Assembly (NCBI GenBank): GCA_004322205.1
Contig: SCSN01000004.1
Location: 1 to 36,939 of the forward strand
Reading direction: 5' to 3'
Source: Patescibacteria group bacterium
Lineage (GTDB): Bacteria; Patescibacteriota; Minisyncoccia; Phycocordibacterales; Zambryskibacteraceae
DNA: 36,939 nucleotides
Part shown: one piece after another, positions 1 to 10,601 of the stretch
Numbering within the stretch: position 1 is the stretch's first letter
How the letters are laid out: each line of letters begins with the position of its first letter
Position numbers and translations under genes: made by a program
The notes under the pieces: model-generated
What the model saw: only the letters and a program-made list of their open reading frames with translations
The model's database searches: none
What the model was told of the DNA's origin: nothing

Positions 1-70
1 TGGGCAGTTTCAGGAACGCAGGGTAGTCATTCCGAGGTAGGGCGAATGACGGGGTGAATGACTAGGTAAA

Positions 71-124
71 TCAGTCGGGATTTTGCTCAAAATGAGTCCG
101 AACAGTATCATACAAACACCACCA
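71..124 (-). mobile_element. Orphan 17-codon tail WWCLYDTVRTHFEQNPD*, putative integrase C-terminus/att scar (copy 1)
   Basis: Colinear with 1691-1744, 18797-18850 and 36903-36938; conserved at the peptide level; no upstream gene body. Confidence 0.55.
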
Positions 125-131
125 AATTTGA

Positions 132-188
132 TTTGCCGAAGAACTTGCGGGTGCGCTTGATGTTTCGGTAGATGAGTTGTTGAAATGA
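132..188 (+). pseudogene. 3' remnant of an XRE-family HTH regulator
   Basis: Frame reads FAEELAGALDVSVDELLK*, a typical HTH_3 C-terminal helix; its TGA overlaps the ATG at 185; in-frame stop at 129. Confidence 0.6.
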
Positions 189-1009
189 CCATGTTAGACT
201 CTAATTTTATAAATGAATGGCAAGAACTAATTGGGGCCGCGCTTGGCCCTTTTCTTGCCGTTATTCTTTCCGCTATTGGATTTTGGATAAAATCCGTTAT
301 TGAGGATAAGAAAGAGCGGAAAGAATTTTTACGGAGAATAGAAATTAGTCTCGCAAGAAGTCTCAATGATATTTTCACTGCTCGCGAACAGTTGAGATGG
401 TTTTCTAGCCGCGTAAAAAATCTTGCAGCTGAATCAAGATCAATAACAGACGACAAGGTCTTTTTCTTGAATCGGGTGAACTTTCCGACTATGCGCGAAA
501 TTTACCGAGATATTGATATGCCAAACTTCAAAGTCAAAAGTTATTATCTGCATAACAAGATAATGTGGGTTGACGCTGGCACAAAAGAAATGAACGAAGT
601 TGTGTTAAATCTAAAAAGTGACTTTGAAGATTTGATACGACAAAACGAATTGCTTGTTGCGGTAATGAGGAACAGCCCCAACCCGAAAATGCAACGAAGC
701 GCATACGAACAAAATCTAGAATCTTTTGCAAACGCAATAGATGACTTCACCTCAAAAAGTATGGGGCAAGGAATTGAGATAATGACGCAGGTCAAAATCT
801 ACAATGAGAAATTACGACGCAGAAATGGTCACTTGTTCTTATGGAAGCAAGAAGGAACAAAATTTAAGTTTTTCCGAAATAAAAAAGAGCAAAAGGCGTT
901 TGCAAGAAATCTCGATTCACTAGATCGGATTGATAAAGTTATAGAAAAGGAGGTGCAGAACGCAATAACGAACGCAGAAGATAGGGCTAAAAAGCTAGTA
1001 CATACATAA
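185..1009 (+). CDS. Hypothetical protein with N-terminal TM helix, helical body
   Basis: 274-aa AT-rich ORF; hydrophobic LIGAALGPFLAVILSAIGFWI. Confidence 0.8.
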   Translation: MTMLDSNFINEWQELIGAALGPFLAVILSAIGFWIKSVIEDKKERKEFLRRIEISLARSLNDIFTAREQLRWFSSRVKNLAAESRSITDDKVFFLNRVNFPTMREIYRDIDMPNFKVKSYYLHNKIMWVDAGTKEMNEVVLNLKSDFEDLIRQNELLVAVMRNSPNPKMQRSAYEQNLESFANAIDDFTSKSMGQGIEIMTQVKIYNEKLRRRNGHLFLWKQEGTKFKFFRNKKEQKAFARNLDSLDRIDKVIEKEVQNAITNAEDRAKKLVHT

Positions 1010-1119: not shown

Positions 1120-1491
1120 ATGGGACTAGACCTGACCTTGCTGCCCCTCCGGGGACCGCAACAGATGGGCGACACTTCGGTTCTCTGCCATGATCGTTTG
1201 AGCTTCGATCGAGACTACGAGATCTTCGGTCAACTCACGGATGTTGGCGAGGGCAACAAGCCGACAATCAAGGCGAACTCGATCCCGCCGCAGATGTGGG
1301 TCGAGACGTACGAGGACGAGGGCATCAAACGACGCCGCGACGACAAGTACGGCACCGAGCTGACGTTCGTCTACGCCGAGCGGCTCAAGAAGCTAAAGGT
1401 GTCGGACGACGCGTCGGCCAAGAACAAGGCGATCAAGGCCTTCGTCGAGGCGTTACCGAACGACACGCCCATCCTCCTGCTCTGGCGGTGA
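1120..1491 (+). CDS. Hypothetical protein (123 aa)
   Basis: SD AGAAAGGAG, TTGACT-17-TAAGCT promoter-like site upstream, terminator downstream, strong GC3 bias. Confidence 0.85.
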   Translation: MGLDLTLLPLRGPQQMGDTSVLCHDRLSFDRDYEIFGQLTDVGEGNKPTIKANSIPPQMWVETYEDEGIKRRRDDKYGTELTFVYAERLKKLKVSDDASAKNKAIKAFVEALPNDTPILLLWR

Positions 1492-1556: not shown

Positions 1557-1599
1557 CACAAAAAATTTCTATACTAATTTTACTTGTCGCCGTCAAAAA

Positions 1600-1870
1600 A
1601 CTTGGAAGCCCAAGCGAGGGCGCGGCGGAAGGGGGGTGTGGGGGGAATTCCGCCGCGCCCGAGCGTCCCGCCGGAGCGAAGCGGAGGCGGTCAGTCAGGG
1701 TTCTCCGCAAAATGGGTTCTGACTTTTTCAAACAAACACCACAATTCAAAACTTTTCAACTTTTTCGCTGGGGACAAGACCGCATGCTCGCCGCTCTTCG
1801 GCCCGAAAGATTAACGGTGCTCCCTGTTTCGCCACGCGAGCCCAGGTGGGTTCGCTTTTCGTTTTGAAAA
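1600..1870. repeat. GC-rich palindromic island-edge element containing tail copy 2 (1691-1744, minus strand, LWCLFEKVRTHFAENPD*)
   Basis: GGGCGCGGCGGAA/TTCCGCCGCGCCC inverted repeat; ACGCGAGC...GGTTCGCT motif shared with ~36856-36880. Confidence 0.6.
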
Positions 1871-1871
1871 A

Positions 1872-2231
1872 TCACTTCTCGCTCCTCTTTTTATCAAATA
1901 ATACTTTGTAGCCGGCGAATTCCCTCGCAAGCATCCTCCCCACAACGGCAGTGTCGGGGGACGGTCCGAATTCGGTGCTCCAACCCCAGAGCTTGATTGT
2001 CTTTGCAATATGATTGAGAAGAATCTTACCGCCGCCCAGTGGAAAAATTTTTACATTCGGATCGGTCACCATAATTTCCTTTTCAAATTTTGCAAGAATA
2101 TCCCTATGGAAAGAAGAATCTGTGTCTGCGCGAAGAAAAAGAGTTCGTTTCCGGGAATCGTCAGTTACTTGAATCAAAAGATACTTCCGCCCCGGGCCTC
2201 TTATTGCCACAACGGGAATTTTAGATAGCAT
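1872..2231 (-). CDS. Janus/Ocnus (PHPT1-like) phosphohistidine phosphatase homolog
   Basis: Motifs IP-V-I...KYLLI-V, LR-x7-H-DI, LGGGKI, IKLWGWSTEFGP and F-GY-V match human PHPT1 in order and spacing. Confidence 0.8.
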   Translation of the reverse strand: MLSKIPVVAIRGPGRKYLLIQVTDDSRKRTLFLRADTDSSFHRDILAKFEKEIMVTDPNVKIFPLGGGKILLNHIAKTIKLWGWSTEFGPSPDTAVVGRMLAREFAGYKVLFDKKRSEK

Positions 2232-2234
2232 ACT

Positions 2235-3227
2235 TTACTTCTGCCAATGCGATTCGATATAAGAGTTGACTTCGCTTACCTTGAGGGGGGTAGTGGTATT
2301 GCCGGTGCGAATGTAGAACTCCTCCTCCCCGTTGGCGCGTACATAAGCCGGTTTCGGAGACGGCACCACCTCGATAAGACAGATATTCTTCTCCTCAATT
2401 CGCTCAAAAGATAGGTCAACGTACTGACGGAATTCCGCGCCGATAGTTGTCTTAAAAGCCTGATTGAAGTGATTCTCAAACCCGTCCTTATCCTTACGGA
2501 TAAGCGTTTTGATGTCATCTTCGAGTCCGGCAATACCACCGTTGTCAGAAACACCGACAATAAGGTTGCCGCCGTCAGAGTTGAGAAAAGCGGCAATGGT
2601 TTTCATGACCGAGCGCTCGAGGTCCTTATTGACTGCTTTGCGTTTGGTATCCCAGCGAAACGTTTGCTTGAACTCCAGTCGGCGGTTCTCGCCCTCGAGA
2701 ATCAAATCGAGAATGGAAAACTTTTTGCTCTCCGGCGGTTTGCGGCGGATTGCAAGATCAACTGTGTCCTTGACAATATTGGCGTAAATCTCCGCATTTT
2801 CAACACTTCTGATGCAGAGTGGCCTTTCCGAGACCAAAGTGTGAACAACAATTGTGCCGTAGTTAAGGAAAAATTCGAGAGGCGAGCGCTTGTATTCAAC
2901 GGAGGAGACATTCTTTAGCATGATGGAGTTCTCGCGATTGAACATCATACCCCAGCGGTGGACAATTTCTTTTTCCTTGATGCGATACTCCTCGCTGTGC
3001 CAGCGCAGAAACACCCCGAGGGTGACGAGCAATTGGAGAATTGAGGCGGCAATGACGAGAAAAATATCGTAGCGGATGAGCCTGCCGATAAAAGTTTGTC
3101 TGTAAAGCTGCTCGTAGTTGGCAATAAACGAAATGGCAAATAGAACGATGCTGATACCGACCTCCACTCCAATAATTCGGCGGATCAGGACGAGCGGACT
3201 CTGCCGTATCACCACAGGGTATCGCAT
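2235..3227 (-). CDS. Membrane protein: 2 TM + bacterial PH (bPH_2) domain + Schlafen/AlbA_2 domain
   Basis: EYRI...IVHRWG...I-L-NV-SV...LNYGTIVVHT (bPH_2); GENRRLEFKQT, IAAFLNSDGG-LIVGVSDNG, FYIRTGNTT (AlbA_2). Confidence 0.88.
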   Translation of the reverse strand: MRYPVVIRQSPLVLIRRIIGVEVGISIVLFAISFIANYEQLYRQTFIGRLIRYDIFLVIAASILQLLVTLGVFLRWHSEEYRIKEKEIVHRWGMMFNRENSIMLKNVSSVEYKRSPLEFFLNYGTIVVHTLVSERPLCIRSVENAEIYANIVKDTVDLAIRRKPPESKKFSILDLILEGENRRLEFKQTFRWDTKRKAVNKDLERSVMKTIAAFLNSDGGNLIVGVSDNGGIAGLEDDIKTLIRKDKDGFENHFNQAFKTTIGAEFRQYVDLSFERIEEKNICLIEVVPSPKPAYVRANGEEEFYIRTGNTTTPLKVSEVNSYIESHWQK

Positions 3228-3325
3228 GACATCATCATATCACCCCGAAAGAGGCTCCGCATCTGACGGGCCAGGCAGGCCTGCCGCCGGCAAGGCAGAG
3301 AAAACGCTCTCATGCGCTTGACGCT

Positions 3326-4315
3326 CTAGCCGCGGCGCAGAGCTAAATGAACAAGATGATCCAGAAAGTCAGGAAAAGACAGCTCTGCCACTTCCAGAGC
3401 CTTTGGAAGAAGTGATTTGGGCGTCAGGCCGGGTAGGGCGTTGGCCTCGATGAGATAGACCCCCCGCTTGGGGTGGATGATGAAATCGGCGTTGGAATAG
3501 TGCCGCAGTCCGAGCGCCCGGTGAACCTTCATCGCCCAATTCTGAATTTGCTCTTTTTCCTCACGAGAAAATTTGCTGGGACAGATTTTTTCCGTTTCCC
3601 CGACATATTTGGACTGGTAATCAAAAAAGTGTTTCCCCGGCGGCCGCACCACTTCTACTGGAAAAAGCGAATAAAGACTGCGGTCGGTGGCACTCTCGAC
3701 GACACTTGCCGTTGCCTCCCGTCCCGGAATATATTCCTCGATAAGCACATGCCCGCCGTGGCGGAAAGCTTCTTCGATCCCTAGCGCAAATTCAGGAAAA
3801 GTTCGAGCAACAGAAATACCAATGGAAGAGCCGCCGAAGAGCGGTTTAACAATTGAGGGCTGGGGAAAGGTCTTGAAGAGCTCGAGGGCGTTGCGGTGAG
3901 TGTTTGCAGAATGCGGCAAGACGGCGGAAACTGGCGTCTTGATCCCGTGATTTTCAAAAATCTGCTTAGACCGAGCTTTGTTCATTGAAAGCGCCGCCGA
4001 GAGCGCCCTTGAGCCGGTATAAGGAATCCCAAAATACTCGAGCTGGGTCTGGACTTTGCCGTCCTCGCCGTAGGCGCCGTGCAGAGCGTTGACTACCAAA
4101 TCCGCCTCGCGAAGTGCCCGCTCCGGCAAGAGAGTCACACCCCGAACATGCCAATCGCCGTCTTGGGAAATAAAAATGTCGAGCGGGACATACTTTTCCG
4201 GCAGATGCCGCAAAACTTGTGCCCCGCTCTGAAGCGAAACCTCGTATTCAGGAGAGGGGCCGCCGCGCAGCACTCCGACGCGGAGCTTGCCGCGGTTCAA
4301 GACATCGGTTGACAT
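3326..4315 (-). CDS. ddl: D-alanine--D-alanine ligase
   Basis: GGPSPEYEVSL, LHGAYGEDG, GSSIG, FDYQSKY, EANALPG; start set at ATG 4315 (MSTDV). Confidence 0.95.
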   Translation of the reverse strand: MSTDVLNRGKLRVGVLRGGPSPEYEVSLQSGAQVLRHLPEKYVPLDIFISQDGDWHVRGVTLLPERALREADLVVNALHGAYGEDGKVQTQLEYFGIPYTGSRALSAALSMNKARSKQIFENHGIKTPVSAVLPHSANTHRNALELFKTFPQPSIVKPLFGGSSIGISVARTFPEFALGIEEAFRHGGHVLIEEYIPGREATASVVESATDRSLYSLFPVEVVRPPGKHFFDYQSKYVGETEKICPSKFSREEKEQIQNWAMKVHRALGLRHYSNADFIIHPKRGVYLIEANALPGLTPKSLLPKALEVAELSFPDFLDHLVHLALRRG

Positions 4316-4341
4316 AACTTCATTGTATAAAAGCAAACTGT

Positions 4342-4509
4342 AAAACGAAAGCCGCCGAGGTGATTCGGCGGCCGGCAGACCTGGCAAGCGCTGGGATGAT
4401 CGCGGCAGAGGGACATTTACTCAATGAGAAATGTCTACTGCTGGTCTAACCTCCTTTCTTAGCGACCATGAGGGTTTCCATCGAGGGGTGTATCCAGCGC
4501 TTGCCTCTA
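4342..4509 (-). ncRNA. Unknown structured small RNA candidate 1
   Basis: TTGCGC-16-TAAAAT promoter (4542-4515); 12-bp closing stem 4494-4505/4383-4394; internal hairpins; terminator 4372-4342. Confidence 0.6.
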
Positions 4510-4531: not shown

Positions 4532-5911
4532 CTAATGCGCAAGGCGGCCCTTTCTCATCCTTCGTCGGTGATAACTTACAGCAAAGCGGTGAGCCTCTGC
4601 ATTCACAAGCAGAATTTCTCTCGTATGATTCTCAATTATTCCTTTTTTTCCTAAAACCTCCTTCGGCCGATGTTTTTCATTTTTGACAACCGAGACAACT
4701 TCGATGTTGAAACCTCGCCCCGCAAGCACTTCTCGTGCAATGTTTCTCTGTGCCCCCCCTCCATCAACCACAATCACCTGCGGCAGAGGCCATTCTGCGT
4801 GACCGAGGCGCCGAACAAGCACTTCTTTTAGATTGGTAATATCGTCAATTGAGACTCTAAGCCTGCTCTGCCCGGTCGGCGGTCTGGTGCCGCGAATCTT
4901 AAACTTTCGGTATTCGCTTCCCTCTAACTCGCTGTTCTCGGCAACAACCATCACTCCCACTGTTTCCGCTCCGGCACTATGCGCAATGTCATAAGCTTCA
5001 ATCCGAAAGGAATCTTCGAGTTTCGCATTTCGATTCTCGAATTTCGTTCGCTTAAGCAACGAAACGTCCTGAATATGTTCGAGTGCGAAAATTTTCCGCC
5101 TTAGCTCATCCGCTTTCTCAAATTGAAGCGCTTTGGCAGCTTCTCTCATCTCTCGCTCGAGATTTTTTACAACTTCTCTTTTCTTACCGCTGAAAAAAAG
5201 GATGATATTCCGAATTGTCTTAGCGTAATCTTTTTGCGATATTTCGCCGGTACAAACTCCGGGACAAAGGCCAATTTGTCTATTGAAACAAGGTTTGGAA
5301 ACTTTTGTCTTTCCAGACACAGAAGTTATCCCAACATTCTCAAGTTTGTCAGTGTGTTGTTCTGATGACGGAGAGCATTTATCCCTAAAAGGGAAAATTT
5401 TGCGGATAATCTTGAGCGCTTCTTTGAGTTGGGCGCCATGGGGAAAAGGGCCCGCCACAAAATGAACAGCGAATGAGGAATAAGGAATGACGAGTAACTT
5501 TGTGGATTCATTCTTTATTCCCAATTCCTTATTCTTTATTCGGAAAAGTTCCTTTTGTCGCATTGTTAAAACTCTTGGGAACTTTTCCTTTATGATAACC
5601 ACATAGTTATAGCTTTTATCGTCTTTTTCGCGAACGTTATATGGCGGCTGGAACTTTTTTATGTAGTTGGCTTCGAGAATCAAAGCTTCCAGAACAGAAT
5701 CAGTTTGCTCACACTCAATCTTGTCAGCTTCTTGAACCATTTTGGCAATGCGAAGCCCCCGCACCATTGTCAAATCATTTGAAAAGTAGCTTTTAATACG
5801 ATCGTGAAGAGAGGTTGCTTTTCCGACGTATAGAATCTCCTTGCCAGTTTTAAAAAAGTAAACCCCCGGAGTGTCAGGCAGATCAAGTTTCCTCAAATCT
5901 TGACTGGTCAT
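4532..5911 (-). CDS. uvrC: Excinuclease ABC subunit C (short form, no C-terminal HhH domain)
   Basis: GIY-YIG (PGVY...YVGKA), Cys cluster, UVR domain, RIEAYDIAH, VDGG. Confidence 0.92.
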   Translation of the reverse strand: MTSQDLRKLDLPDTPGVYFFKTGKEILYVGKATSLHDRIKSYFSNDLTMVRGLRIAKMVQEADKIECEQTDSVLEALILEANYIKKFQPPYNVREKDDKSYNYVVIIKEKFPRVLTMRQKELFRIKNKELGIKNESTKLLVIPYSSFAVHFVAGPFPHGAQLKEALKIIRKIFPFRDKCSPSSEQHTDKLENVGITSVSGKTKVSKPCFNRQIGLCPGVCTGEISQKDYAKTIRNIILFFSGKKREVVKNLEREMREAAKALQFEKADELRRKIFALEHIQDVSLLKRTKFENRNAKLEDSFRIEAYDIAHSAGAETVGVMVVAENSELEGSEYRKFKIRGTRPPTGQSRLRVSIDDITNLKEVLVRRLGHAEWPLPQVIVVDGGGAQRNIAREVLAGRGFNIEVVSVVKNEKHRPKEVLGKKGIIENHTREILLVNAEAHRFAVSYHRRRMRKGRLAH

Positions 5912-5964
5912 CGCCTTCAAGATACGCTACGCGAGGAACGCACGCAAACTTCCAAGGAGGAGTT

Positions 5965-6580: not shown

Positions 6581-6676
6581 ATCATACAGCAAATAATACT
6601 CGATTGTCAATAGAGACAGGAATTGTGCACCACATTACCACACGTTCTTGACATAGTACATCTTTTTGTTTATAAT
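6581..6676. promoter_or_regulatory. Divergent sigma70 promoters
   Basis: Plus strand: TTGACA(6648)-17-TATAAT(6671), perfect consensus; minus strand: TTGACA(6610)-18-TATGAT(6586). Confidence 0.8.
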
Positions 6677-6723
6677 GTATCACGGAAAGTACCTTATAAT
6701 CTACCCTCTCAAGGAAGGGGTCA

Positions 6724-7860
6724 ATGACCGAGAAACGCGATATTATCAGGCTTGACCTGGTGGATGAGGATATCCGCCTGGTCATTGAAGAAGTTGTTCC
6801 CGAACTCCGCGAACCCCAGCAGCCGAAAGTTCTTGGCTTTTGGCAGGCCTTGAAGAAGTCGTGGCAGTTTTGGAACGATTTTGAAAGTAATGTCGCAGGA
6901 CCCGTCTCATTACTCGTCGCAGGACTCGTCGCAGGAGTCAGCGCAGTACTCGGCGCAGTACTCGGCGCAGGACTCGGCGCAGGACTCGTCGCAGGACTCG
7001 TCGCAGGACTCGTCGCAGGAGTCAGCGCAGTATTCGGCGCAGGACTCGGCGCAGGAGTCAGCGCAGTACTCGGCGCAGTACTCGGCGCAGGATTCGTCGC
7101 AGGATTCGTCGCAGGAGTCGTTGGCGGCGCAAGCGCCGCGGGTCTGGAGTTCGCTCTTGTTACCGGGCGCGCGCTTGTGCTGATGCGCCGATCAGCCCAA
7201 GAGGCCGCTAGGATCCCTGTCTCGCCGGCCCCGATACCCACCCTGGCCGAAGTCGAACGCCGCTTCATCTCTTATATGAGAAAAGAGGCGGGTGCTTGCG
7301 AAGGCGAGTTCGCTGGAGAATCCTCGTCTATTGAACGGCGAGCGGCGGAAATTCGGCGACAACTCAACGAGGCGAAAAAAGCCGAGGAGTATTTTCGGGC
7401 GAGGCGATCCGACGAGCCTGATGATACGAGGCTCGCCGCGGACTACGCCAAAGCCTGCCAGACAGTCAAGGATTTTGAGGCTGATCTTGCAGTGCTCAAG
7501 CGTACGCAGGAGGCGGCGCTCAAGCTCCTGCGCGAAGCCGACATTTTCCTGCCGCAAGAGGAGCGACGGGCCACCGACGAGGAATGGCGGATGCGCCTGT
7601 ATGAGCTCCGCGGCGAGGCTGATCGCGGTCCAGCCGTAACCCGCGAGGTGATCGCGGCCGCCGTGCGGCCGATCGCCGAGCGTCTTGTGCCGCTCGCTCA
7701 AGCGCGCGAACACGTTCGGCTCATGGCCACCGCCGCGCTCACCGGCCCAGGTGCCTTGAGCCGGCTCGAAGCTGAAGCTTCCTCGGCCGGCCGCACCTTG
7801 AGCCAGCTGGCTCGTATTAGTTCCGCGGCCAGCCGCCTTGCCGAGGAGGATGGAGAGTAA
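6724..7860 (+). CDS. Glycine-zipper-like membrane protein with C-terminal coiled coil
   Basis: SD AAGGAAGGGG; about 80-aa hydrophobic AGLV/AVLG repeat; charged helical C-terminus; terminator downstream. Confidence 0.8.
   Translation: MTEKRDIIRLDLVDEDIRLVIEEVVPELREPQQPKVLGFWQALKKSWQFWNDFESNVAGPVSLLVAGLVAGVSAVLGAVLGAGLGAGLVAGLVAGLVAGVSAVFGAGLGAGVSAVLGAVLGAGFVAGFVAGVVGGASAAGLEFALVTGRALVLMRRSAQEAARIPVSPAPIPTLAEVERRFISYMRKEAGACEGEFAGESSSIERRAAEIRRQLNEAKKAEEYFRARRSDEPDDTRLAADYAKACQTVKDFEADLAVLKRTQEAALKLLREADIFLPQEERRATDEEWRMRLYELRGEADRGPAVTREVIAAAVRPIAERLVPLAQAREHVRLMATAALTGPGALSRLEAEASSAGRTLSQLARISSAASRLAEEDGE
6895..7122 (+). repeat. 19 x 12-bp coding minisatellite
   Basis: Units GCAGGACTCGTC, GCAGGACTCGGC, GCAGGAGTCAGC, GCAGTACTCGGC and variants, with no spacers. 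Confidence 0.95.
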
Positions 7861-7916: not shown

Positions 7917-10601
7917 TTATTGATTTTTCAGAACCTTTTTCAGGTAATTGCCTGTATGCGAGCCCGAGACACTGGCGATGTGCTCCGGCATGCCGGCGGC
8001 AACAATTTTTCCGCCGCCTTCCCCACCTTCCGGACCGATATCGATGACCCAGTCGCAGGATTTTATGAAATCCATATTGTGCTCAATCACTACAACAGTA
8101 TTGCCATGGTCAACAAGTCTCTGCAAAATTTCGATAAGCCTCTTCACATCATCGTAGTGGAGACCGATAGTCGGCTCATCCAAAAGATAAATAGTTTTCT
8201 GCAAATGCGGCCGATAGAGCTCGGAGGAAATCTTCACCCTCTGCGCTTCCCCGCCAGAGAGCGTAGTGGCAGACTGCCCAAGCTCCAAGTAGCCGAGGCC
8301 GACATCTTCCATTGTTTTAAGCCGATCATAGACAGCCGGGATGTCCTCAAAAAATTTCAGGGCTTCTTCGACAGTCATCCGCAAAACGTCGTAAATGCTC
8401 TTTTTCTTATATGTGATTTCAAGTGTCTCTTTCATGAAGCGTTTGCCGTTACAGACATCGCAGGGCACGTAAACGGCCGGGAGAAAATGCATTTCCACAG
8501 CAATCTCACCTTTTCCTTGACAGGCCTCGCAACGCCCGCCTTTAATGTTAAAAGAAAAGCGGTTTGCCTTCCAGCCGCGCGCCCGGGCCTCCGAGGTTTG
8601 CACAAAGAGTTCGCGGATAAAAGTGAACGCCCCCGTGTAGGTGGCAGGATTTGAACGCGGAGTTCTGCCGATGGGAGATTGGTCAATAAGGATCGCTCGT
8701 CCCAGATATTCAGTGCCGGAAAATTCTGTGCAGTTGTAAACATCGTTGGAGCGATACCGCCGCTCAAAACGCACTTGAAGATTCCGGTGGAGAATCTCAT
8801 ACATAAGTGACGACTTTCCCGATCCCGACACACCAGTAACGGCAATCAACCTGCCAAGCGGCACGTCAACATTCATATTTTTGATATTGAAAATATTGCC
8901 GCCGCGAATGGAAATTCGTCCCCGGTTCTCCGCTCGGCGCTTCTCCGGCAACGCAATTCTTTCCTCGTCCCGAAGATAAGACAAAGTTCGCGATCCAGAG
9001 GCATTTTTCTTGGAGGTGATGAGTTTTTCGAGCCAATCGGCAACAACGACATGCCCACCGTGCACACCGGCGCCCGGGCCGAGGTCAACAATGTAATCGG
9101 AGGAAAAAATCGTGTCCTCGTCATGTTCCACCACGATTATGGTATTACCAAGGTCGCGAAGATTCAGGAGTGTCTTAATCAGCCGATCGTTGTCACGAGC
9201 GTGAAGACCAATAGTCGGCTCGTCAAGAACATAGAGAGCTCCGACCAACCCCGAGCCGAGCTGGGAAGCGAGACGAATGCGTTGGGCTTCACCGCCAGAG
9301 AGAGTGTGAGCGCGGCGATCAAGAGAGAGATATTCAATGCCGACGTTAATCATAAACTGAAGGCGAGATTTGATCTCCCGAAGCACTACCTTTGAAATGC
9401 TTCTCTCGCGCGCTGTAAGCTTCAAATTTTCGAAAAACTTAAAACAATCTTTTATTGAGAGCGCGGAGATGTCAACAATATTTTTCCCTCGGTCTGCCGA
9501 AGCTTTATGCGAAGGCGACCCGCCCACAAGCACCTGGAGAGCTTCCGGCCGCAGCCGCACCCCCTTGCAGGCCGGACAGGTTTTACCCGCTCTCTGCCAA
9601 CCTTCATTCTCTTCATATTCCCATTCCAGTTCAACCTGACCCAGACCATGGCAGCGCTCACAAGCGCCGAAAGGGCTATTGAAAGAAAAAAGGCGAGGCT
9701 CAATTTCAGGAAAAGAAAAGCCGTCGTGCGGGCAGGCGAATTTTGACGACATCAGGAAGCTTTCAATCCCAGGTTTCGAGTTTTTAGTTTGTTTTGTGTC
9801 GCCAAAGGCGATGCGCACTAAGCCGTCCGACTCGTGAAGGGCACGCTCCAGCGATTCGGAGAGCCGCTCTTCCGAACTTTTCGGATCATTGACGAAATCA
9901 GTAAGACTGATTGAATCAACCAAAACATCAATTTCGTGCCGCTTGTACTTTGAGAGAATGATTTGCTCGCGAAGTTTTTTGCGAACGCCGTCAATAAGCA
10001 CTTCAGAATAGCCCTTGCCCAAGAGGTCGTAGAGAAGCTGGTAATACTCGCCTTTTCTACCGCGCACCACCGGCGCAAAAATTTCAATGTACTGCGGAAG
10101 TGTAATTTTTCCAACCACGTTAGAAGCAACTCGCGGAACGCGAGCGCGGCTTCGTACGTGGTCGAGAACAAAATTTTTAATCTCTTCGACCGAGAGTCTT
10201 TTAATTTCCCTGCCGCAGACAAGACAGTGAGGTCGGCCCATTCGCGCGAATAGTACACGCAGATAATCGTAGATTTCAGTAATAGTTGCCACCGTCGAGC
10301 GCGGATTGTTTGAGCGAGATTTCTGATCAATTGAAATTGCTGGAGAAAGACCCGTAATTTCATCGACATCGGGCTTTTGCATCTGGCGCAGGAATTGCCG
10401 AGCATAGGCAGAAAGCGACTCAACATAGCGCCGCTGACCCTCGGCAAAAATCGTGTCAAAAGCCAAAGAGGACTTGCCGGAGCCGGAAAGCCCCGTAAAA
10501 ACAATCATTTTGTTGCGCGGCATTTCAACCGTAATGTTTTTGAGGTTGTGCGTGCGTGCGCCTTTAACTATGAGTTTTTCTTCAGTTTCCTTTTTAGACA
10601 T
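7917..10601 (-). CDS. uvrA: Excinuclease ABC subunit A
   Basis: Two ABC modules ([26 protein letters not shown] twice), zinc fingers. Confidence 0.98.

What the first reader, a model, noticed from the sequence alone, without database searches (positions are those of the whole stretch)
1872..3227. Candidate two-gene system: membrane bPH-Schlafen nuclease plus PHPT1-like phosphatase
Seen: a 2TM + bPH_2 + AlbA_2 fusion retains the Schlafen acidic triad pattern (E-x4-EFK...GVSD). It is followed 3 nt later by the PHPT1-like gene, with one -10-like site (TATGAT) upstream, directly beside an island-edge element. Established: Schlafen domains can be tRNA/rRNA endonucleases and are fused to varied sensor domains in prokaryotes. 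Inference: a membrane-sensing RNase (defence or dormancy) whose activity might be tuned by a phosphatase partner. The pairing could also be incidental.
Basis: partly seen in the sequence, partly recalled or inferred. Interest (0 to 1): 0.78.

Follow-up and report, generated by a model that had tools for sequence, protein, structure and literature searches.

The report
Membrane Schlafen gene, chance phosphatase neighbour
Both genes are real, but the membrane-anchored Schlafen nuclease is a conserved stand-alone gene of ultrasmall groundwater bacteria, and the phosphohistidine-phosphatase-like gene sits directly next to it only in this genome, so this is not a shared two-gene system.

Summary
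Observation confirmed. Window 2235-3227 (-) encodes a 330-aa protein with a 2-TM hairpin, a bPH_2 domain and a Schlafen/AlbA_2 domain. Its ENRRLEFK and GVSD motifs are intact. Window 1872-2231 (-) encodes a 119-aa PHPT1/Ocnus-fold protein and starts 3 nt after the first gene's stop.

The "two-gene system" reading is not supported.
- The bPH-Schlafen protein belongs to a Patescibacteria family (309 clusters). E180, E185, K187 and D228 are invariant in 84 of 84 aligned members.
- None of 80 other loci has an Ocnus-like gene adjacent to it. Two have one about 3 kb away on the opposite strand.
- None of 14 other Ocnus-like loci in the order has a bPH-Schlafen gene within 1.5 kb.
- In this genome's family the conserved neighbour is ddl, upstream on the same strand in 15 of 15 orthologous loci.
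- Immediate neighbours elsewhere are housekeeping genes, not recognisable defence genes.
- The Ocnus-like gene is a divergent, sporadic accessory gene. It lies at the edge of a compositionally mixed variable stretch with a dispersed GC-rich hairpin repeat.

Best reading: a single-gene, membrane-tethered Schlafen RNase of the sensor-effector type, with the bPH module as sensor. The phosphatase gene is a lineage-specific, probably co-transcribed neighbour. Interest is modest.

The parts
2235..3227 (-). Gene for the 330-aa 2TM-bPH_2-Schlafen/AlbA_2 protein (stop codon included)
   Evidence: ORF; Pfam; 60-69% identical full-length orthologues in 15 of 60 related genomes; 309 clusters in the public protein collection
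2997..3197 (-). N-terminal transmembrane hairpin (residues 11-77; helices 11-35 and 53-77)
   Evidence: AlphaFold2 model. The N-terminus and the stretch after helix 2 are rich in K/R, so bPH and Schlafen are inferred to be cytoplasmic
2745..2996 (-). bPH_2 (bacterial pleckstrin-homology) domain, residues 78-161
   Evidence: Pfam; Foldseek matches to bacterial PH structures 3dcx and 3hsa
2238..2714 (-). Schlafen/AlbA_2 domain, residues 172-330
   Evidence: Pfam; PDB profile hits to SLFN14, 13/8, 11, 12 and 5; Foldseek hits to 3lmm, SAMD9 and SLFN14/13/11/5; mean pairwise identity 60% across 84 relatives
2667..2690 (-). E-x4-E-x-K motif, ENRRLEFK (E180, E185, K187)
   Evidence: Translation; invariant in 16/16 and 84/84 sequences; aligns with tEsthvEFK of SLFN14
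2544..2555 (-). GVSD with D228, the third acidic residue
   Evidence: Translation; D228 invariant; aligns with GVDD of SLFN14/13
2232..2234 (-). 3-nt spacer between the Schlafen stop and the Ocnus start
   Evidence: A contig of a second sample spans it
1872..2231 (-). Gene for the 119-aa PHPT1/Janus-Ocnus-like protein (H42 codon at 2106-2108)
   Evidence: Pfam; profile hit to human PHPT1 chains, E 8e-13; model pLDDT 93.3; TM-score 0.78-0.87 to PHPT1 structures
3326..4387 (-). ddl (D-alanine--D-alanine ligase), the conserved upstream neighbour; 98 nt from the Schlafen start in this genome
   Evidence: NCBIfam; upstream on the same strand in 15 of 15 orthologous loci
3234..3239 (-).
   Evidence: Sequence; not listed by the promoter scan
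1588..1744 (.). Dispersed GC-rich repeat with hairpin (arms 1618-1630 and 1648-1660). It marks the start of the variable stretch. It is not part of a two-gene unit
   Evidence: summed contig depth 4415 in bin 1541-1694, against about 170-180 beside it

Best explanation
Window 2235-3227 encodes one member of a stand-alone protein family found mainly in Patescibacteria (Paceibacteria-type lineages). The protein has a two-helix membrane anchor, a cytoplasmic bPH_2 domain and a single Schlafen/AlbA_2 domain with an intact E-x4-E-x-K...D site. I read it as a single-gene sensor-effector. The membrane-proximal bPH module holds the Schlafen RNase in check and releases or assembles it on a membrane or envelope cue. 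The RNase then cuts tRNA or other RNA and slows translation. Both the cue and the RNA target are inferred. The 119-aa gene at 1872-2231 is an intact PHPT1-fold, probable phosphohistidine phosphatase. It is a sporadic accessory gene that lies directly behind the Schlafen gene only in this genome. With a 3-nt spacer it is probably co-transcribed here, but it is not a conserved partner, and nothing shows that it acts on the Schlafen protein.
For: Architecture and active site: Pfam; model pLDDT 88.1; fold matches to AlbA_2/SLFN and bacterial PH structures. E180, E185, K187 and D228 are invariant in 84 of 84 relatives spanning 36-72% identity and align with SLFN14's motif. The E-x4-(E/D)-x-K motif is needed for defence by RorSlfn5 (PMC13056530, sections 6-10 read or searched).

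Stand-alone family: 309 clusters were found, and 115 of the 120 listed carry both Pfam domains. There are 158 relatives in genome contigs. No neighbour is conserved across the 80 loci kept.

Pairing not conserved:
- The single Ocnus protein hit 2 of 61 related genomes, and the second hit is on another contig.
- PF05005 hit 2 of 401 genomes in the phylum sample.
- An Ocnus-like gene lies within 5 kb in 2 of 80 Schlafen loci. Both are about 3 kb off, on the opposite strand, with unrelated genes between. None of the 80 is adjacent.
- Ocnus-like genes occur in 15 of 401 genomes of the order sample. Only G000's locus holds a bPH-Schlafen gene within 1.5 kb, i.e. 1 of 15.
- On the Schlafen tree the four Ocnus-bearing rows need 3 changes, no better than shuffled labels (128 of 500 shuffles as low).

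Conserved context instead: ddl is upstream on the same strand in 15 of 15 orthologous loci, with gaps of -14 to 116 nt in 13 of them.

The Ocnus gene is an outlier: its best relative among 1.84 billion representatives is 37% identical.
Against: - All four Ocnus-bearing genomes among the 61 relatives also carry the bPH-Schlafen gene. That is 4 of 16 Schlafen-positive against 0 of 21 Schlafen-negative family genomes. These genomes are kin, so this is weak.
- In G002 and G004, and judging by gene order also G028, the Ocnus-like gene lies in the same Schlafen-to-NUDIX interval. A loose link is therefore not excluded.
- The 3-nt spacing in G000 is what a real operon looks like.
- No RNase activity, trigger or oligomeric state was tested.
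- The family's housekeeping-like conservation (63-69% identity, against Ddl 50-54% and UvrC 55-56% in the same genomes) and its non-defence neighbours fit a physiological role as well as they fit a gated toxic effector.
Confidence: 0.6

Rival explanations
1. One reading: the two genes form a functional module in which the PHPT1-like phosphatase tunes the membrane Schlafen RNase, at least in this lineage.
For: The spacer is 3 nt on the same strand, and the junction is present in a second sample. Both proteins look intact and catalytically competent. Ocnus-like genes were found only in Schlafen-positive genomes of the family (4 of 16 against 0 of 21). In three relatives they lie in the same interval.
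Against: Adjacency was seen in 0 of 80 other Schlafen loci and in 0 of 14 other Ocnus-like loci. Twelve of the 16 Schlafen-positive family genomes have no Ocnus-like gene detectable with the profile. G000's copy is only 25-27% identical to those of the relatives. In the relatives the gene is on the opposite strand, separated by tag and an ABC-F ATPase or other genes.
Confidence: 0.1
2. A non-immune, envelope-coupled role: the bPH-Schlafen protein is a physiological membrane RNase or RNA-binding factor co-expressed with cell-wall and division genes. It would link envelope state to translation rather than answer phage.
For: It has a fixed chromosomal position behind ddl, with overlapping or abutting stop and start codons in several genomes. 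In other clades it sits directly beside DivIC, M23 peptidase or PG_binding_1 genes. Of 138 immediate neighbours, Ddl accounts for 13, DivIC 4, PG_binding_1 4, M23 3 and PAP2 2. No PADLOC model matches more than 4 of the 138, and those models are helicase-type. Conservation is housekeeping-like. The Schlafen paper itself notes that 30.4% of prokaryotic Schlafen genes are not near defence genes.
Against: Distribution is patchy: 16 of 37 genomes in the family and full length in 1 of 401 in the phylum sample, so it is not essential. RNase Y is present in 60 of 61 relatives including G000, so the protein does not replace the usual membrane RNase. The neighbour counts come from only a few independent synteny groups. 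Only the two nearest genes per locus were scanned against PADLOC.
Confidence: 0.25
3. The AlbA_2 domain here only binds nucleic acid (NCBI's name is 'putative DNA binding domain-containing protein') and the protein is a membrane-tethered regulator or tether, not a nuclease.
For: Source names. Top fold hits include DNA-binding AlbA_2 proteins: 3lmm, and the SAMD9 DNA-binding-domain entry 7ksp. There is no enzymology.
Against: All three acidic residues and the lysine are invariant across 84 of 84 sequences. SAMD9's homologous domain is also deposited as a tRNase (9o0d). There is no HTH or other DNA-reading domain.
Confidence: 0.08

Closest known systems
Prokaryotic Schlafen sensor-effector fusions (pSlfn; e.g. 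RorSlfn5, EcoSlfn7), PMC13056530
   Same: A single Schlafen domain carries the E-x4-(E/D)-x-K motif and is fused to a non-catalytic domain that could act as sensor. The gene stands alone.
   Different: The partner domain is a 2-TM hairpin plus bPH_2. The immediate neighbours here are housekeeping genes, not defence genes. The family is found mainly in Patescibacteria.
Eukaryotic SLFN11/13/14 tRNA/rRNA endonucleases
   Same: Fold and active-site motif. ENRRLEFK...GVSD aligns with tEsthvEFK...GVDD of SLFN14, and there are Foldseek hits.
   Different: The eukaryotic enzymes have two lobes in one chain plus a helicase domain. Here there is one lobe only, so a dimer or higher oligomer would be needed to form a clamp (inference). 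Sequence similarity is weak (E 2e-6 with a profile).
YdbS/YdbT-type bPH_2 membrane proteins
   Same: A two-helix anchor is followed by a cytoplasmic bPH domain. JGI names several relatives 'membrane protein YdbS with pleckstrin-like domain'. The phylum also has about 165-aa proteins that match only this half.
   Different: Those proteins have no nuclease domain. Their known links are to bacteriocin transport or immunity (PMC8657885, search listing and abstract start only), not to RNA.
Human PHPT1 (14-kDa phosphohistidine phosphatase) / Drosophila Janus-Ocnus
   Same: Same fold (TM-score 0.78-0.87, rmsd 1.9-2.7 A). The invariant R34, H42, G66-G68, S85 and G89 align with conserved PHPT1 positions.
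   Different: Identity is 25-27%. The host is bacterial and the family is rare there: PF05005 in 2 of 401 genomes and the profile in 15 of 401. The substrate is unknown.
RNase Y (membrane-anchored endoribonuclease)
   Same: It works like one possible model for this protein: an RNase held at the membrane by an N-terminal anchor.
   Different: The fold is unrelated. RNase Y is itself present in G000 and in 60 of 61 relatives, so the Schlafen protein is not its substitute.

Membership tests
Schlafen/AlbA_2 nuclease domain (PF04326; pSlfn) | Profile match above the curated cut-off | tested here: met
   78 bits against a cut-off of 25.3, residues 180-315
Schlafen/AlbA_2 nuclease domain (PF04326; pSlfn) | E-x4-(E/D)-x-K active-site motif | tested here: met
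   ENRRLEFK; E180, E185 and K187 invariant in 84 of 84 sequences; motif definition from PMC13056530 section 6
Schlafen/AlbA_2 nuclease domain (PF04326; pSlfn) | Third acidic residue in the G-V-x-D strand | tested here: met
   D228 invariant and aligned with GVDD of SLFN14 and SLFN13/8. Its role as a catalytic residue is recalled, not taken from a call
Schlafen/AlbA_2 nuclease domain (PF04326; pSlfn) | Fold like solved SLFN / AlbA_2 domains | tested here: met
   Foldseek: 3lmm E 1.2e-6; SAMD9 7ksp and 9o0d; SLFN14, 13, 11 and 5
Schlafen/AlbA_2 nuclease domain (PF04326; pSlfn) | RNase (tRNA-cleaving) activity | not testable with these tools
   Needs enzymology or tRNA sequencing
Anti-phage defence gene (defence-island criterion) | Known defence genes in the neighbourhood | tested here: not met
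   138 immediate neighbours of 80 loci were scanned. No PADLOC model was matched by more than 4, and those models are helicase-type. Pfam shows Ddl, DivIC, Obg, M23, release factors and so on. Only the nearest gene on each side was scanned, not +/-10 kb
bPH_2 / YdbS-like membrane module (PF03703) | Profile match above cut-off, preceded by a two-helix membrane hairpin | tested here: met
   41 bits against 22; helices 11-35 and 53-77; fold matches 3dcx and 3hsa
PHPT1 / Janus-Ocnus (PF05005) | Profile match above cut-off and PHPT1 fold | tested here: met
   60.9 bits against 23; TM-score 0.78-0.87 to 2hw4, 2nmm and 2ai6
PHPT1 / Janus-Ocnus (PF05005) | Active-site histidine | tested here: met
   H42 is invariant in 26 of 26 sequences and aligns with the H of 'EYHADIY' in PHPT1. 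That this is the catalytic His is recalled
PHPT1 / Janus-Ocnus (PF05005) | Phosphohistidine phosphatase activity | not testable with these tools
   Needs an assay
Conserved two-gene system (Schlafen + phosphatase) | Repeated adjacency or co-occurrence of the two families in other genomes | tested here: not met
   Adjacent in 0 of 80 Schlafen loci and in 0 of 14 other Ocnus-like loci. Twelve of 16 Schlafen-positive family genomes lack an Ocnus-like gene
Conserved two-gene system (Schlafen + phosphatase) | Physical interaction of the two proteins | tested here: inconclusive
   The one complex-prediction job gave no verdict; see Tried and rejected

The most novel reading that the evidence does not exclude
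In these ultrasmall bacteria the membrane bPH-Schlafen protein is not an anti-phage gene. It is an envelope-coupled RNase, co-expressed with peptidoglycan and division genes (ddl, divIC, M23), that ties membrane or cell-wall state to a translation shut-down. In this one lineage a PHPT1-like phosphohistidine phosphatase has been recruited into its operon as a regulator.
Probability: 0.1. Interest if true: 0.7.

Novelty: new variant of a known kind. Interest (0 to 1): 0.3.

Why it matters
Prokaryotic Schlafen nucleases have recently been shown to be phage-triggered tRNases fused to varied sensors (PMC13056530). A membrane-anchored bPH fusion, fixed behind housekeeping genes in reduced Patescibacteria genomes, would extend that picture. 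It points either to a membrane-sensing trigger or to a non-immune role. The proposed phosphatase partnership does not hold up as a general system, so it should not be catalogued as a new two-gene defence system. The PHPT1-fold gene is a rare bacterial example of a mainly eukaryotic family, and its substrate in a bacterium with so few signalling proteins is unknown.

Tried and rejected
1. Complex prediction of Schlafen residues 78-330 with the Ocnus-like protein: score 0.02 against a mark of 0.32, no verdict. This is evidence neither for nor against binding.
2. Expression: no RNA holder is listed for this stretch, so co-transcription could not be checked.
3. Reciprocal neighbourhood scan in metagenome contigs with the Ocnus alignment A5: the tool found no stretch conserved enough to search with. 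I used a profile search of 401 genomes of the order instead.
4. Idea that the protein replaces the membrane RNase Y: rejected, because RNase Y is found in 60 of 61 relatives including G000.
5. Idea that Ocnus-bearing genomes form one clade on the Schlafen tree: not shown. The tree needs 3 changes and is poorly resolved.
6. NCBIfam and PADLOC gave nothing for either protein beyond one weak pAgo-model hit (E 0.001) that covers the Schlafen domain. PHROGs gave only generic hits, 'DNA helicase' over the AlbA_2 part and 'membrane-flanked domain' over the bPH part.
7. The word-index protein search found no relative of the Ocnus-like protein other than itself.
9. Literature: searches listed no paper that joins Schlafen with bPH, YdbT or Patescibacteria. 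One search listed no paper on bacterial PHPT1 homologues. One search failed on a term's syntax and was not repeated. Supplementary tables of PMC13056530 could not be seen, so a bPH-Schlafen class may already be listed there.
Full report
**What is there**

On the minus strand of the window, the order is uvrA (7917-10601), uvrC (4532-5920), ddl (3326-4387), a 330-aa ORF (2235-3227) and a 119-aa ORF (1872-2231).

The 330-aa protein matches Pfam bPH_2 (residues 80-146) and SLFN_AlbA_2 (residues 180-315), both well above the curated cut-offs. The 119-aa protein matches Janus/Ocnus PF05005. The stop of the first ORF and the ATG of the second are 3 nt apart.

The junction is not an assembly chimera. 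A contig from a second sample of the same study covers 1991-3038 without a single difference.

**The organism**

The window is contig C10 of a 667-kb, 18-contig genome rated 100% complete. The closest named relatives of its proteins are Candidatus Zambryskibacteria and other Paceibacteria-type Patescibacteria. The DNA is held by groundwater metagenome runs.

**The Schlafen protein**

An AlphaFold2 model built on 84 relatives has a mean pLDDT of 88.1. It shows:
- two long helices (residues 11-35 and 53-77);
- a beta-rich domain with a C-terminal helix (80-161);
- a low-confidence linker (163-170);
- an alpha/beta domain (172-327).

Foldseek matches the C-terminal domain to the AlbA_2 protein 3lmm, to the SAMD9 domain (deposited both as a DNA-binding domain and as a tRNase domain), and to SLFN14, 13, 11 and 5. 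It matches the middle domain to bacterial PH-domain structures 3dcx and 3hsa.

A profile of the family hits SLFN14, SLFN13/8, SLFN11, SLFN12 and SLFN5 chains by sequence. In that alignment E180-x4-E185-F-K187 lies on SLFN14's E-x4-E-F-K and GVSD lies on GVDD. One SLFN14 entry, whose title names an E211A mutant, carries A in place of the E that aligns with E185.

E180, E185, K187 and D228 are invariant in 16 of 16 family orthologues and in 84 of 84 wider relatives at 36-72% identity. The published definition of the prokaryotic Schlafen active site is E-x4-(E/D)-x-K, and alanine changes in it abolish defence by RorSlfn5 (PMC13056530, sections 6-10). Activity itself is untested.

**The phosphatase-like protein**

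A profile of five bacterial homologues hits human PHPT1 chains at E 8e-13. The invariant R34, H42, GGG, S85 and G89 fall on conserved PHPT1 positions. The model (pLDDT 93.3) superposes on PHPT1 structures with TM-scores of 0.78-0.87.

The protein is a sequence outlier:
- the word-index search found only itself;
- among 1.84 billion representatives only one other protein reaches E 1e-10, and that protein is 37% identical;
- the top hits are unnamed metagenome proteins.

**Test of the pairing, from the Schlafen side**

Among 60 related genomes, 15 have a full-length orthologue at 60-69% identity. In all 15, ddl lies upstream on the same strand. In 13 of them the gap is between -14 and +116 nt; the other two gaps are 464 and 1152 nt. 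The gene downstream differs from genome to genome, and none of these loci has an Ocnus gene next to the Schlafen gene.

A scan of one genome per species found 158 relatives, and the best 80 loci were kept with up to 5 kb on each side. These 80 include most of the 15 genomes above, so the two sets are not independent.
- By BLAST and by a profile search, an Ocnus-like gene is present in 2 of the 80 (L035 and L037).
- In both it is about 3 kb downstream, on the opposite strand, and separated by tag plus an ABC-F ATPase or other genes.
- None of the 80 has one adjacent. A third, weak profile hit (L077, E 0.022) I treat as noise.
- No gene cluster is a general neighbour of the family: ddl is the nearest upstream gene in 13 of 80, and every other cluster in 4 or fewer.

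**Test of the pairing, from the Ocnus side**

- The single protein finds 2 of 61 related genomes, and the second hit is on a different contig from that genome's Schlafen gene.
- PF05005 finds 2 of 401 genomes in the phylum sample. The other one (G128) sits beside an unrelated 202-aa membrane protein.
- A five-sequence profile finds 4 of 61 relatives: G000, G002, G004 and G028. Three of those sequences were in the profile.
- A 26-sequence profile finds 15 of 401 genomes in the order sample. Only G000's locus contains a bPH-Schlafen gene within the 1.5-kb flanks, i.e. 1 of 15.

**A residual link**

All four Ocnus-bearing relatives are Schlafen-positive. That is 4 of 16 Schlafen-positive against 0 of 21 Schlafen-negative genomes of the family.

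In G002 and G004 the Ocnus-like gene lies next to a NUDIX gene and pgi. In G000 those two genes are at the very start of contig C15, which shares short repeat pieces with the start of C10. So the gene probably occupies the same Schlafen-to-NUDIX interval in these genomes.

This is weak evidence for three reasons:
- these genomes are kin;
- the Ocnus-bearing rows are not one clade on the poorly resolved Schlafen tree (3 changes; 128 of 500 shuffles as low);
- G000's copy is only 25-27% identical to the others, whereas Schlafen is 63-69% and NUDIX 74-76% identical.

I read this interval as a variable spot in which an Ocnus-like gene occurs sporadically.

**Context and kind of selection**

The stretch beyond the Ocnus gene is a mixture:
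- a GC-rich hairpin repeat with copies at several contig ends of G000, and a very high summed depth in the metagenome contigs;
- an orphan ORF with GC3 of 0.83;
- another orphan ORF with GC of 0.38, against a genome GC of 0.488.

Neither orphan matches any Pfam (above its cut-off), NCBIfam, PHROGs or PADLOC family.

The Schlafen gene belongs to the conserved block. Between G000 and G004/G002 it is 63/69% identical, compared with UvrA 73/74%, UvrC 55/56%, Ddl 50/54% and Pgi 38/45%. Within the family the Schlafen domain is the best-conserved part, at 60% mean pairwise identity across 84 sequences. The membrane hairpin and the bPH domain are each at 39%.

Of 138 immediate neighbours in the 80 loci, no PADLOC model is matched by more than 4, and those are helicase-type models. 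Pfam finds Ddl (13), DEAD-box helicases (4), DivIC (4), PG_binding_1 (4), Obg (3), M23 peptidase (3), Tag (3) and release factors (2). The gene is therefore not in recognisable defence islands, unlike 69.6% of the prokaryotic Schlafen genes in the published survey.

Distribution is patchy. The gene is in 16 of 37 genomes of the family, mostly all-or-none by genus. In an even sample of the phylum only G000 has the full-length form (1 of 401); four genomes have only the bPH half and four only the Schlafen half, in other ORFs.

**Mechanism I commit to**

- Shown: the architecture, the conserved active-site residues, the stand-alone status and the lack of a conserved phosphatase partner.
- Inferred: the bPH module at the inner face of the membrane acts as sensor or assembly platform. 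A membrane or envelope cue brings single-lobe Schlafen domains together into an active RNase. RNA cleavage then slows translation.

Whether the cue is phage entry or envelope stress is open. I put about 45% on a defence or abortive type of role, about 25-30% on a physiological envelope-linked role, and about 10% on binding without cleavage.

The PHPT1-like gene is probably co-transcribed in G000 because of the 3-nt spacing. I give about 10% to a real functional coupling.

**Comparison with the known, and novelty**

The protein works like, and by the tested features belongs with, the prokaryotic Schlafen sensor-effector fusions. The differences are the membrane-anchored bPH sensor, the occurrence mainly in Patescibacteria and the housekeeping-type context.

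The main text of the 2026 survey does not mention membrane or PH fusions. I therefore rate this a new variant of a known kind. The 'two-gene system' is not supported. Interest is modest.

Noticed in passing
window 1588-1744 (hairpin arms 1618-1630 / 1648-1660): A GC-rich repeat with a 13-nt perfect inverted repeat around a GAATTC core. Copies of 83-100% identity lie on contigs C2, C5, C7, C12, C14, C15 and C17 of the same genome, several at positions 33-79 of contig ends. Summed contig depth is about 25 times the flanks in the metagenome runs. It may be a REP/MITE-like element that breaks the assembly.
   Followed up: partly
window 185-1009 (+) and 1120-1491 (+): Two orphan ORFs with opposite composition: GC 0.379, and GC 0.599 with GC3 0.83, against a genome GC of 0.488. 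Neither matches a Pfam (above its cut-off), NCBIfam, PHROGs or PADLOC family. The stretch looks like a mosaic variable region.
   Followed up: partly
window 1-150 and G000 contig C15:1-2763 (L108): The starts of C10 and C15 share short repeat pieces. C15 begins with the NUDIX and pgi genes that follow the Schlafen interval in relatives G002 and G004, so the two contigs are probably neighbours in the real chromosome.
   Followed up: partly
loci L038, L041, L042, L044 (DivIC upstream); L087, L091, L098 (M23 peptidase downstream, 1-nt overlap); L023-L037 (ddl upstream): In at least three separate synteny groups the bPH-Schlafen gene abuts a cell-wall or division gene. This is a possible envelope theme, resting on few independent groups.
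   Followed up: partly
Schlafen protein residues 244-253 (window 2469-2498): An R-K-D-x-D-G-F-E-N-H stretch is invariant in the 16 family orthologues. D248 is invariant, and G249, F250, E251, N252 and H253 are nearly invariant in 84 relatives. It lies beyond the part that aligns with solved Schlafen structures. Its role is unknown.
   Followed up: no
loci L068, L084, L088, L095, L099: Full-length bPH-Schlafen genes lie on contigs of MAGs labelled Chloroflexi, Anaerolineae, Caldilineales/Caldilineaceae and Pseudomonadales. This could be transfer outside Patescibacteria or mis-binned contigs.
   Followed up: no
G132:C133, G099:C4, G107:C70, G019:C9 (L017): The Schlafen half of the family profile also matches inside much longer ORFs (648-742 aa) in other members of the phylum and family. 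The same nuclease domain therefore occurs in other fusions there.
   Followed up: no
window 6582-7860: A GC-rich stretch (0.61-0.64) has long overlapping ORFs on both strands (6724-7860 + and 6582-7268 -). Their translations are repetitive and rich in Ala, Gly, Leu and Val or in Pro, Ala, Thr and Ser. It is unexplained.
   Followed up: no
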